Assembly (NCBI GenBank): GCA_963752155.1
Contig: CAVVXH010000017.1
Location: 58,388-122,387 of the forward strand
Length of the DNA stretch: 64,000 nucleotides
Direction: 5' to 3'
Origin: an uncultured Parachlamydiaceae bacterium
Lineage (GTDB): Bacteria > Chlamydiota > Chlamydiia > Chlamydiales > Parachlamydiaceae
The notes beneath the pieces were generated by a model that did not search any database, was not told the origin of the DNA, and saw only the letters and a program-made list of their open reading frames with translations. This document shows positions 53,051-53,463 of this stretch, piece by piece (position 1 is the stretch's first letter; each line of letters opens with the position of its first letter). A program made the position numbers and the translations under genes.

Positions 53051-53079
53051 TTGTCTTTAAATTCCCTTTCCGCTAAAGT
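53051..53079 (+). promoter_or_regulatory. sigma66-type promoter for the leader-proBAC transcript
   Basis: TTGTCT-N17-TAAAGT. Confidence 0.65.
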
Positions 53080-53139
53080 TACATTAAGTAAAGGGCTTTC
53101 AAAACAATCAAGGTCTGCCCTAACTAATTAGGTATAGAT

Positions 53140-53220
53140 ATGGAAAAATCATTTTTCAATGCGTCTAAACATCCATTTCAATTTGCCGGCTCACCGCCCC
53201 CGCCTCCCTTTTTGGGTTAA
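53140..53220 (+). CDS. Putative proline-rich leader peptide MEKSFFNASKHPFQFAGSPPPPPFLG
   Basis: ATG after an AGGT SD; CCG CCC CCG CCT CCC run; TAA at 53218-53220; 243 bp upstream of proB. Confidence 0.8.
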   Translation: MEKSFFNASKHPFQFAGSPPPPPFLG

Positions 53221-53463
53221 TTCTTTTTTTTATTACATACATTTTTATTGATTCTAGTTTTTTAGGATCATAACTATTTGTCGTAGATTTAATCATTTAT
53301 ACCAGGCTCTGTCATAAAATTGGATTTTGTGTATGGAGATTTTTTGGTCCGTTGACTTGTGCAGAAAAGAGACGTACGTGTTTGTAAGCCTTTTTTGTAT
53401 AAACAAACTCCACATGATTAAAACTAACGATCACGCATATTCATGTAAAAAATAGGGTTTCTT

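What the first reader, a model, noticed from the sequence alone, without database searches (positions are those of the whole stretch)
53051..53463. Poly-proline leader peptide upstream of proBAC: candidate proline/EF-P-sensing attenuator
Seen: a TTGTCT-N17-TAAAGT promoter, then a 26-codon ORF (53140-53220) below the ORF-track cutoff encoding MEKSFFNASKHPFQFAGSPPPPPFLG. It has five consecutive Pro codons (CCG CCC CCG CCT CCC) and an earlier CCA, so all four Pro codons are used. This C-rich run lies in otherwise very AT-rich DNA, directly ahead of the proline biosynthesis genes, and is followed by a pyrimidine-rich tract and a 243-nt spacer. Established: cognate-codon runs define his/trp/leu/thr/phe attenuators; proBA in Bacillus is T-box controlled; Salmonella mgtL uses Pro codons with Rho; polyproline translation needs EF-P. 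I do not know of a described Pro leader-peptide attenuator for proBAC in Chlamydiae. Inference: only a weak CCC-TTTTT-GGG stem precedes the U tract, so control may be Rho-dependent, with a ribosome stalled on Pro codons masking a C-rich rut site.
Basis: partly seen in the sequence, partly recalled or inferred. Interest (0 to 1): 0.9.

Follow-up and report, generated by a model that had tools for sequence, protein, structure and literature searches.

The report
Proline-codon leader peptide before proBAC
A tiny upstream gene with five proline codons in a row sits before the proline-synthesis genes here and in many other environmental chlamydiae, and it most likely lets the cell raise proline synthesis when proline runs short.

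Summary
Window 53140-53220 encodes MEKSFFNASKHPFQFAGSPPPPPFLG-stop, 243 nt upstream of proB-proA-proC.

It is not chance. A fixed criterion (short ORF, at least 2 Pro near its end, CCC-N3-7-GGG at the stop) is met upstream of 25 of 73 chlamydial proB loci. It is met in 0 of 73 reverse complements and 28 of 5000 random windows.

A strict DNA pattern scanned over the species-level genome collection gave 17 hits, and 13 lie just upstream of proB.

The Pro codons vary at the third base, which is a coding-type constraint. The last Pro codon, however, is CCC in 24 of 25 leaders, and a GGG follows in 24 of 25. This keeps a CCC/GGG mini-hairpin over the TAA stop, followed by a U-rich tract. A downstream hairpin, P2, shows covariation.

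My reading is a ribosome-mediated sensor of prolyl-tRNA supply. How the stall is read out is unresolved. No canonical terminator or RNA switch was found. Masking of a C-rich Rho-loading tract is the most coherent option, but it is inferred.

None of four literature searches, nor Rfam, returned a description of it. The scan noted the same element on another genome (e1-7729154).

The parts
53051..53079 (+). Candidate sigma-70-type promoter, TTGTCT-N17-TAAAGT
   Evidence: Read. It scores 8/12 against consensus, below the scan tool's cut-off. The hexamers and spacer (ttaaattccc...) are homologous to TTGCTT/TAGCTT-ttaaagtttc...-TAAAAT, which lies at the same distance from the leader ATG in L027, L028 and L040. 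The transcription start is not known.
53092..53121 (+). 5'-proximal hairpin P0 (AGGGC ... GCCCT) between promoter and leader SD
   Evidence: Present in the MFE folds. Related loci have a hairpin at the same place with a different sequence, for example AGGAC-aata-GTCCT in L027 and CTCTAAA-ttc-TTTAGAG in L005 (by eye; not tested statistically).
53130..53133 (+). Shine-Dalgarno-like AGGT for the leader ORF
   Evidence: An SD-like 4-mer ends 3-11 nt before the start codon in 16 of 25 leaders.
53140..53220 (+). Leader ORF, 26 codons plus TAA: MEKSFFNASKHPFQFAGSPPPPPFLG*
   Evidence: Translation. Homologous ORFs lie upstream of proB in 25 of 73 loci by a fixed criterion, and L006, L009 and L037 are added by eye.
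53194..53208 (+). Run of five Pro codons, CCG CCC CCG CCT CCC (proposed stall site and C-rich tract)
   Evidence: Of the 25 leaders, 16 have at least 4 consecutive Pro. The third bases vary: CCT 49, CCC 34, CCG 13, CCA 12 at all Pro codons except the last one. In the ten 24-codon leaders, CCC alternates with CCD.
53206..53216 (+). Mini-hairpin CCC-TTTTT-GGG made from the last Pro codon and the Leu/Gly codons, ending 1 nt before the TAA stop
   Evidence: In leaders not pre-selected by pattern, the last Pro codon is CCC in 24 of 25 and a GGG triplet is kept in 24 of 25. RNAalifold picks this as the only consensus helix. The hairpin is kept when the frame or the stop moves (L054, L044, L045, L047).
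53221..53234 (+). U-rich tract after the stop (TTCTTTTTTTTATT)
   Evidence: The T fraction in the first 15 nt after the stop is 0.59, against 0.44 in the rest of the spacer. It is higher in 21 of 25 loci.
53249..53270 (+). Hairpin P2, TGATTCTAG-tttt-TTAGGATCA
   Evidence: Present in 18 of 18 type-A leaders aligned. 88.7% of cells are paired, 5 of 8 pairs have compensatory changes, slid controls reach 25-55%, and 0 of 500 shuffles reach the observed covariation score. The G.U pairs fit only the + strand RNA.
53280..53431 (+). Hairpin P3, arms 53280-53296 and 53414-53431, with a window-specific structured insertion of about 115 nt in its loop
   Evidence: MFE fold. AU-rich hairpins of the AATTAAT type lie at the same place in L027, L028, L032, L033, L034 and L043. 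The arms differ between loci. Covariation was not formally counted.
53445..53463 (+). A-run, SD (TAGGG) and spacer of proB
   Evidence: The sequence GTAAAAAATAGGGTTTCTT-ATG is conserved among type-A loci. In the window alone, the MFE pairs it with 53205-53233.
53464..54339 (+). proB, glutamate 5-kinase, 291 aa, without a PUA domain
   Evidence: Pfam AA_kinase. TIGR01027 at 309.7 bits, covering profile positions 1-273 of 363.
54336..55592 (+). proA, glutamate-5-semialdehyde dehydrogenase; its start overlaps the proB stop
   Evidence: NF001221 at 558 bits.
55603..56391 (+). proC, pyrroline-5-carboxylate reductase
   Evidence: TIGR00112 at 251.8 bits.

Best explanation
The 26-codon ORF is a translated leader peptide gene of the proBAC operon. 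It works as a ribosome-mediated sensor of proline supply.

When prolyl-tRNA(Pro) is scarce, or EF-P-assisted poly-proline synthesis is slow, the ribosome stalls on the five Pro codons and stays parked over the C-rich tract and the CCC/GGG hairpin. When proline is plentiful, the ribosome runs to the TAA three codons later and leaves. Stalling raises proBAC expression.

Shown: the ORF, its conservation, the codon-type constraint, and the conserved hairpins.

Inferred: that it is translated, that it senses proline, and the direction of control.

The read-out step is the least certain. I put about one chance in three on the following route. The free pyrimidine tract (Pro run plus U-rich tail, C/G about 2) lets Rho load and stop transcription in the 243-nt leader. 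A stalled ribosome masks that tract. The CCC/GGG hairpin with its U-rich tail would act as a pause site that synchronises RNA polymerase and the first ribosome, as the 1:2 hairpin does in trpL.
For: Conservation next to proB:
- The fixed criterion is met in 25 of 73 proB loci, 0 of 73 reverse complements and 28 of 5000 random windows.
- It is met in 15 of 17 proB-bearing genomes of family f8.
- 13 of 17 hits of a strict pattern in the 185,579-species collection lie 115-206 nt upstream of proB.
- 11 of 12 hits of a looser 4-Pro pattern in 401 genomes of the phylum are proB leaders. The reversed control pattern gave 4 hits.

Coding-type constraint:
- Positions 1 and 2 of the Pro codons are fixed, and the third bases vary.
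- ATG, frame and TAA are kept.
- An SD-like motif is present in 16 of 25 leaders.

Rare-codon bias, as in classical attenuators:
- CCC makes up 17% of Pro codons in this genome, but 31% of non-terminal leader Pro codons across the 30 leaders.
- In the ten 24-codon leaders, CCC fills 24 of the 28 Pro codons at odd run positions and none of the 19 at even positions.
- Only a tRNA-Pro(UGG) gene was found.

Compatible with a Rho route:
- rho and two efp genes are present.
- The 80 nt around the stop have C/G of at least 2.0 in 20 of 25 loci, against 6.4% of random windows.
Against: There is no expression, transcript-end or ribosome-profiling data, and no RNA run was listed.

No canonical intrinsic terminator lies in 52500-53700. 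No mutually exclusive terminator/antiterminator pair was found, and P2 and P3 fold locally in every model.

Type-B leaders, found in some f1-family genomes and in single genomes of f17 and f39 (L004, L006, L010, L046, L049, L045, L009, L047), keep the CCCC/GGGG hairpin but have only one to three Pro codons. The hairpin may therefore matter more than the Pro run.

48 of 73 proB loci lack the element by the criterion, including all f27 loci, where another gene precedes proB.

The C/G excess is largely forced by the Pro codons themselves. A 15-nt C tract is short for a rut site.

The conserved N-terminal half (F-T-x-S-x-R-Q-F-x-N-S) is not explained.

The related genomes are not independent samples.
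Confidence: 0.6

Rival explanations
1. Translational attenuation. The 3' end of the leader (last Pro codon to the U-rich tract) base-pairs with the proB ribosome-binding site and start codon. A ribosome stalled on the Pro run opens this helix, so that proB is translated.
For: In the window, the MFE pairs 53205-53216 with 53461-53472 and 53219-53233 with 53445-53459, 25 pairs in all. Masking a stalled ribosome's footprint raises predicted accessibility of the proB start region from 0.20 to 0.45. Strong cognate duplexes are also predicted in L034 (-17.5), L052 (-15.5) and L004 (-12.5). One cognate versus non-cognate test gave p = 0.016.
Against: The effect is not general. Accessibility rises in 4 of 25 loci and falls in 4, with means of 0.41 against 0.42. 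Duplex z-scores against shuffles are around 0 or positive. Four other choices of segment gave p = 0.05-0.42, so the p = 0.016 does not survive multiple testing. U-run/A-run pairing is expected from composition alone in AT-rich leaders.
Confidence: 0.15
2. Classical intrinsic attenuation or pausing. The CCC/GGG hairpin plus the U-rich tail is itself a weak terminator, and a ribosome sitting on the Pro codons prevents it from forming.
For: The hairpin and U-rich tail are the most conserved nucleotide features. They persist when the reading frame or the stop moves (L054, L044, L045, L047). In L005, L027, L032 and L047 the U run follows the stem almost directly.
Against: The stem has only 3-5 pairs. 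In the window, 7 nt (TTAATTC) separate it from the T8 run. The terminator scan finds nothing. The timing also works against it, by inference from ribosome and polymerase footprints. A ribosome close enough to block the hairpin does so whether or not it then stalls, and a late ribosome allows termination. Proline shortage would then not raise expression.
Confidence: 0.12
3. Nascent-peptide arrest sensor. The conserved peptide (…RQFxNSPPPPPFLG-stop) acts inside the exit tunnel, like TnaC, SecM or SpeFL. It stalls in response to a small molecule or to EF-P state, rather than to tRNA charging.
For: Residues 10-16 positions before the C-terminus are conserved in type-A leaders, with a few synonymous changes: F6, S9, R11, Q12, F13, N15. 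Every one of the 25 leaders ends in TAA.
Against: The window's own leader differs in this part (NASKHPFQFAGS). Type-B leaders share only the P-x-L-G end. Codon identity is mostly kept too, so conservation at the RNA level cannot be excluded. A ligand-induced stall would give the wrong sign for a biosynthetic operon if the ligand were proline.
Confidence: 0.06
4. Not a sensor. The ORF and hairpins are a conserved 5' UTR with another role, such as mRNA stability, a constitutive translational enhancer, or a small protein.
For: There are no functional data. Type-B leaders have few Pro codons. P0, P2 and P3 are structural elements with no assigned role.
Against: A run of the cognate amino acid's codons placed exactly before that amino acid's biosynthetic operon is the defining signature of leader-peptide control. 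The run is kept as codons in 16 of 25 loci with at least 4 Pro and enriched for the rare CCC. The motif was found nowhere else in 401 genomes apart from one chance hit.
Confidence: 0.07

Closest known systems
Classical leader-peptide transcription attenuators of amino-acid operons (trpL, hisL, leuL, thrL, pheL, ilvL); recalled knowledge
   Same: A short SD-led ORF lies directly upstream of the biosynthetic operon and carries a run of codons for the operon's end product. Rare codons are preferred, as recalled for leuL. The regulatory codons lie in the 5' arm of a small hairpin followed by a U-rich stretch, like the 1:2 pause hairpin of trpL.
   Different: The amino acid is proline. No canonical terminator and no alternative antiterminator pairing was found. 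The stop codon lies only three codons after the run. The host is Chlamydiota. None of my four literature searches turned up a description of it, and Rfam 15 has no matching family.
Salmonella mgtL (mgtA) and mgtP (mgtCBR) proline-codon leader ORFs
   Same: Pro codons in a leader ORF couple translation speed to downstream transcription. For mgtA, this works through exposure of a Rho-utilisation site (passages of PMC12856214; titles and abstracts of PMC3641672, PMC5299641 and PMC6460261).
   Different: Those leaders control Mg2+ transporters and a virulence operon, not proline synthesis. As I recall it, their Pro codons are fewer and, in mgtL, not consecutive, and the read-out there relies on defined alternative stem-loops. 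No such stem-loops were found here.
T-box riboswitches on proBA/proI of Bacillus (recalled knowledge)
   Same: The regulatory logic is the same: proline biosynthesis genes are switched on when tRNA-Pro charging falls.
   Different: The mechanism is entirely different (tRNA binding to the leader RNA, no ORF). No T-box or any other Rfam family matches here at E up to 10, or in 12 related loci at E up to 0.1.
Regulatory arrest peptides (SecM, TnaC, SpeFL) and EF-P-dependent poly-proline stalling
   Same: A proline-dependent stall lies near the end of a short regulatory ORF. The conserved residues would sit in the exit tunnel at the time of the stall.
   Different: There is no sequence similarity. 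Here the stall is expected from A-site starvation or poly-Pro chemistry, not from a ligand or a pulling force.

Membership tests
Classical leader-peptide transcription attenuator | Short ORF with start codon and SD immediately upstream of a biosynthetic operon | tested here: met
   ORF at 53140-53220 with AGGT 6 nt upstream. proB follows 243 nt downstream. An SD-like motif is present in 16 of 25 homologues.
Classical leader-peptide transcription attenuator | Run of codons for the end-product amino acid | tested here: met
   Five consecutive Pro codons. 16 of 25 homologues have at least 4 consecutive Pro codons.
Classical leader-peptide transcription attenuator | Conservation of the ORF upstream of orthologous operons, with synonymous variation in the regulatory codons | tested here: met
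   25 of 73 proB loci against 0 of 73 and 28 of 5000 controls. Third bases vary: CCT 49, CCC 34, CCG 13, CCA 12.
Classical leader-peptide transcription attenuator | Rho-independent terminator between the leader ORF and the first structural gene | tested here: not met
   The scan found 0 terminator-like sites in 52500-53700. There is only a 3-bp CCC/GGG stem, 7 nt before a T8 run.
Classical leader-peptide transcription attenuator | Mutually exclusive antiterminator and terminator pairings set by ribosome position | tested here: inconclusive
   MFE folds of 25 loci show P2 and P3 as independent local hairpins. Footprint-constrained folds, scored only for accessibility of the proB start region, show no consistent change. 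Thermodynamic models of AT-rich RNA are weak evidence.
Classical leader-peptide transcription attenuator | Operon expression rises on starvation for the amino acid | not testable with these tools
   No RNA holder was listed.
Rho-dependent Pro-codon leader (mgtL type) | Pro codons in a translated leader ORF | tested here: met
Rho-dependent Pro-codon leader (mgtL type) | Rho present in the organism | tested here: met
   Rho_RNA_bind at 115.9 bits, in a 462-aa open frame on G000:C10.
Rho-dependent Pro-codon leader (mgtL type) | C-rich, G-poor unstructured rut region whose exposure depends on leader translation | tested here: inconclusive
   C/G is 2.0 in the window and at least 2.0 in 20 of 25 loci, against 6.4% of random windows. 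Most of the excess is the 15-nt Pro run itself. Rut function cannot be predicted reliably.
Rho-dependent Pro-codon leader (mgtL type) | Read-through increased by Rho inhibition | not testable with these tools
   This needs bicyclomycin treatment or in vitro transcription with Rho.
T-box riboswitch | Match to the T-box covariance model (specifier loop, T-box sequence) | tested here: not met
   No T-box match at E up to 10 in window 52000-54000. No Rfam match at E up to 0.1 in 12 related loci.

The most novel reading that the evidence does not exclude
The element is a composite attenuator of a kind not yet described. The proline codons would be at once the stall site and the Rho-loading tract, so that sensor and effector are the same 15 nucleotides. 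The conserved, covarying hairpins P2 and P3 downstream would form a second structured RNA module that responds to a protein or a small molecule. Chlamydiota would then have a two-input control of proline synthesis.
Probability: 0.15. Interest if true: 0.85.

Novelty: new variant of a known kind. Interest (0 to 1): 0.7.

Why it matters
Leader-peptide attenuation is a textbook mechanism known for Trp, His, Leu, Thr, Phe and Ile/Val operons. I found no description of it for proline biosynthesis. Four full-text searches returned none. In a 2026 review of proline translation I read only the passages matching my terms. There the regulatory examples are SecM, MgtL and CadC, and the terms 'attenuat' and 'proline biosynthe' have no match.

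A proline version is of special interest because poly-proline is also the substrate of EF-P, so one element could read both amino-acid supply and translation-factor state.

It would also be one of very few cis-regulatory RNA elements defined in Chlamydiota. These bacteria are hard to manipulate genetically, and the element is small enough to test in E. coli reporters or in a defined translation system.

The missing canonical terminator makes the read-out step an open mechanistic question.

Tried and rejected
- RBS sequestration as a general mechanism. Leader-versus-proB-start duplexes were no better than shuffles. Footprint-constrained folding gave no consistent opening. Cognate versus non-cognate duplex tests gave p = 0.016 for one choice of segments and 0.05-0.42 for four others. 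I reject it as a general mechanism but keep it as a rival for the window.
- Canonical terminators: none found.
- Known RNA families: no meaningful Rfam match in the window or in 12 related loci.
- RNA-seq: no RNA holder was listed.
- Other targets of the same leader. The four other sites inspected (six of the other runs of at least 5 CCN codons in the genome) are three GGN-rich stretches read on the opposite strand and one poly-C tract. The one non-proB hit of the 4-Pro pattern (G217) lies inside a 542-aa ORF on the other strand. The four non-proB hits in the species collection (records labelled Clostridia, Terracidiphilus, Gaiellaceae, Planctomycetota) have no proB downstream.
- RNAalifold on a MAFFT alignment of nine spacers recovered only the CCC/GGG helix, because P2 and P3 were misaligned. 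P2 was therefore re-aligned on its own.
- PMC4833913 (leader genes and reinitiation): the passages I read have nothing on proline.
- Look-ups of earlier scan notes by sequence and by place returned nothing.

Full report
**What is in the window.**
- TTGTCT (53051-53056), a 17-nt spacer and TAAAGT (53074-53079) precede the ORF.
- AGGT lies six bases before the ATG at 53140.
- The ORF 53140-53220 reads MEKSFFNASKHPFQFAGSPPPPPFLG-stop. Five consecutive Pro codons (CCG CCC CCG CCT CCC) lie at 53194-53208.
- CCC-TTTTT-GGG lies at 53206-53216, TAA at 53218-53220, and TTCTTTTTTTTATT follows.
- The proB ATG is 243 nt further on, at 53464.

The three genes that follow score as equivalogs of glutamate 5-kinase, glutamate-5-semialdehyde dehydrogenase and pyrroline-5-carboxylate reductase. 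A TLC ATP/ADP transporter at 48006-49631, together with the titles of related records, places the window among environmental chlamydiae.

The assembly has 38.4% GC and holds only 25 runs of five or more CCN codons on both strands. I looked at four further sites, covering six of these runs. Three lie in GGN-rich stretches read on the opposite strand, and one is a poly-C tract.

**Is it more than chance?** I collected the DNA upstream of every proB found in 61 relatives and in a 400-genome sample of the phylum, where 69 genomes have proB at E <= 1e-30. Further regions were fetched. This gave 73 distinct loci.

I applied a fixed criterion:
- an ORF of 12-45 codons within 350 nt upstream, on the same strand;
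- at least two Pro among its last ten residues;
- CCC-N3-7-GGG at the stop.

The criterion is met in 25 of 73 loci. It is met in 0 of 73 reverse complements of the same regions and in 28 of 5000 random 350-nt windows of this genome. Three further homologues (L006, L037, L009) fail the criterion but are recognisable by eye.

In family f8, 15 of the 17 proB-bearing genomes have the element. One of the two exceptions (L036) keeps the downstream hairpins but has lost the ORF. Family f27 has none, because there proB follows another gene whose product ends in ...RPPPPRDYPLW.

The strict pattern CCNCCNCCNCCNCCCTTYNNRGGNTAA, scanned over one genome for each of 185,579 species, gave 17 hits. Thirteen are followed by proB 115-206 nt downstream. 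The other four, from records labelled Clostridia, Terracidiphilus, Gaiellaceae and Planctomycetota, are not.

A looser four-Pro pattern in 401 genomes of the phylum hit 12 genomes. Eleven hits are proB leaders. One lies inside a 542-aa ORF on the opposite strand. The reversed control pattern gave four hits. I therefore found the motif only in front of proB.

**What is conserved.** There are two leader types.
- Type A includes the window. It reads M-E/K-x-x-F-F-T-x-S-x-R-Q-F-x-N-S-PPPPP-F-L-G-stop, and it goes with short ProB proteins.
- Type B is found in some genomes of the window's own family and in single genomes of families f17 and f39. Examples are MQFFSLKPSFSFAFPPRLG and MENYSFTLVFSFLSFFPPLVG. 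It has only one to three Pro codons.

Among 30 distinct leaders (five of them pre-selected by the pattern), the Pro codons other than the last are CCT 49, CCC 34, CCG 13 and CCA 12. Two fixed positions and a free third position is the signature of codons, not of a C-rich RNA motif.

Two features are fixed at the nucleotide level:
- The last Pro codon is CCC in 24 of the 25 leaders that were not pre-selected.
- Three G follow four to six bases later in 24 of those 25. When the Gly codon is GGT, the preceding codon supplies a G in 7 of 8 cases.

The hairpin survives when the frame or the stop changes:
- L054 ends PPPPPARV-stop yet keeps CCC-GCAA-GGG.
- L044 adds a codon after the Gly.
- L045 stops inside the hairpin.
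- L047 stops four codons later.

All 25 leaders end in TAA. The 15 nt after the stop are T-richer than the rest of the spacer, 0.59 against 0.44, and richer in 21 of 25 loci.

In the ten 24-codon leaders, the run alternates: positions 1, 3 and 5 are CCC (8/9, 6/9 and 10/10), while positions 2 and 4 are never CCC (0 of 19). That maximises CCC while avoiding long C homopolymers. CCC is a minor codon in this genome (17% of Pro codons). Only a tRNA-Pro(UGG) gene was found among 36 tRNAs, although the assembly is only 80% complete.

**Downstream structure.** A hairpin, P2, lies at 53249-53270 (TGATTCTAG/TTAGGATCA). It is present in all 18 type-A leaders aligned.
- 88.7% of cells are paired.
- Five of eight pairs show compensatory changes.
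- Slid controls reach 25-55%.
- None of 500 shuffles reaches the observed covariation score.
- Its G.U pairs fit only the + strand.

A second, AU-rich hairpin, P3, follows in several loci. In the window its arms are 53280-53296 and 53414-53431, around a structured insertion of about 115 nt. That insertion explains the long spacer.

A 5' hairpin, P0 (53092-53121), and the promoter hexamers also have positional counterparts in related loci (by eye). No Rfam family matches the window or 12 related loci.

**How it most likely works.** A run of the cognate codons placed before the biosynthetic operon, kept as codons and biased to a rare codon, is the signature of a ribosome-mediated amino-acid sensor. 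I put about 0.6 on this reading. Stalling on the run when prolyl-tRNA is short, or when EF-P is limiting, should raise proBAC expression.

The read-out is not settled. I tested three routes.
1. **Intrinsic termination.** The scan finds no terminator. The conserved stem has only 3-5 pairs, and in the window it lies 7 nt before the T8 run. Simple footprint reasoning also says that a ribosome near enough to block this hairpin does so whether or not it then stalls. That gives the wrong dependence on proline.
2. **Opening of the proB start region.** The window itself folds into a 25-pair helix between 53205-53233 and 53445-53472. Masking a stalled ribosome's footprint raises predicted accessibility from 0.20 to 0.45. 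Across 25 loci, however, the effect is absent: means are 0.41 against 0.42, with four loci up and four down. Duplexes are no better than shuffles. Cognate versus non-cognate tests give p = 0.016 once and 0.05-0.42 in four other designs.
3. **Rho.** By elimination, the only thing that still differs between a stalled and a released ribosome once the polymerase is far downstream is whether the Pro tract is covered. The tract and its U-rich tail are pyrimidine-rich. C/G is at least 2.0 in 20 of 25 loci, against 6.4% of random windows, although most of this excess is the Pro run itself. The genome has rho and two efp genes.

It is coherent, and I give it about one chance in three, but nothing here tests it. 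In that model, the hairpin with its U-rich tail would be a pause site that lets the first ribosome catch up, as in trpL. P2 and P3 would be later pause sites. These roles are inferred.

**What speaks against a simple proline sensor.** Type-B leaders keep the hairpin with few Pro codons. The N-terminal half of type-A peptides is conserved for no known reason. Forty-eight of 73 proB loci lack the element by the criterion. The genomes compared are relatives, not independent samples.

**Novelty.** Four full-text searches found no paper describing a proline-codon leader for proBA(C). I saw only search listings and abstracts, except for two papers.
- In PMC4833913, the passages I read have nothing on proline.
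- In PMC12856214, a 2026 review of proline translation, the passages I read give SecM, MgtL and CadC as the regulatory examples. The terms 'attenuat' and 'proline biosynthe' have no match in it.

Subscription journals are largely missing from the library, so an older description cannot be excluded. The scan itself noted the same kind of element on another genome (e1-7729154), and my independent survey agrees with that note.

I class this as a new variant of a known kind: a leader-peptide control element for proline, with an unusual architecture and an unknown read-out.

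Noticed in passing
window 52752-53025: A 274-bp element with 98-nt inverted arms (89% complementary) ends about 25 nt upstream of the leader promoter. BLAST finds many full and partial copies on several contigs of this genome (236 HSP lines), so it looks like a MITE-type repeat.
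   Followed up: partly
window 53464-54339 and 53140-53220: The window's ProB is short and lacks a PUA domain (profile positions 1-273 of 363). Its leader is type A, like family f8 (65-72% identity), whereas most ProB proteins of the window's own family f1 are about 375-390 aa and several of those loci have type-B leaders. The leader-proBAC cassette may have moved between chlamydial families. No tree was built.
   Followed up: partly
window 53297-53413: An insertion of about 115 nt, specific to this window, lies inside the loop of hairpin P3. It folds into two strong hairpins (53307-53338 and 53357-53402) and explains the 243-nt spacer, against about 125 nt in most relatives.
   Followed up: partly
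G000 whole assembly: ARAGORN finds 36 tRNA genes and only one tRNA-Pro (anticodon UGG). If that is the full set, CCC would be read by wobble only, which fits its use in the leader. The assembly is only 80% complete.
   Followed up: no
L036 (G228), 130 nt upstream of proB: This f8 genome keeps the P2 3' arm, P3 and the A-run/SD of the leader, but the leader ORF and promoter are replaced by the start of a divergent gene. It is a natural deletion variant.
   Followed up: no
L005/L023 (G032): The type-A leader MENTFFIASSLRFIFSPPPPPFLG is intact, but the proB match behind it carries one TGA and one TAA. The gene may be decaying, or the assembly may have errors.
   Followed up: no
G000:C6, about 100-750: A GC-rich stretch encodes a Gly/His-rich repeat on the other strand at a contig end. 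It is unlike the 38% GC of the rest of the assembly, whose listed contamination is 4%.
   Followed up: no
window 51287-52093 (+) and 52134-52508 (-): The two ORFs between the isochorismatase-family gene and the leader (268 aa and 124 aa) have no Pfam or NCBIfam match.
   Followed up: no
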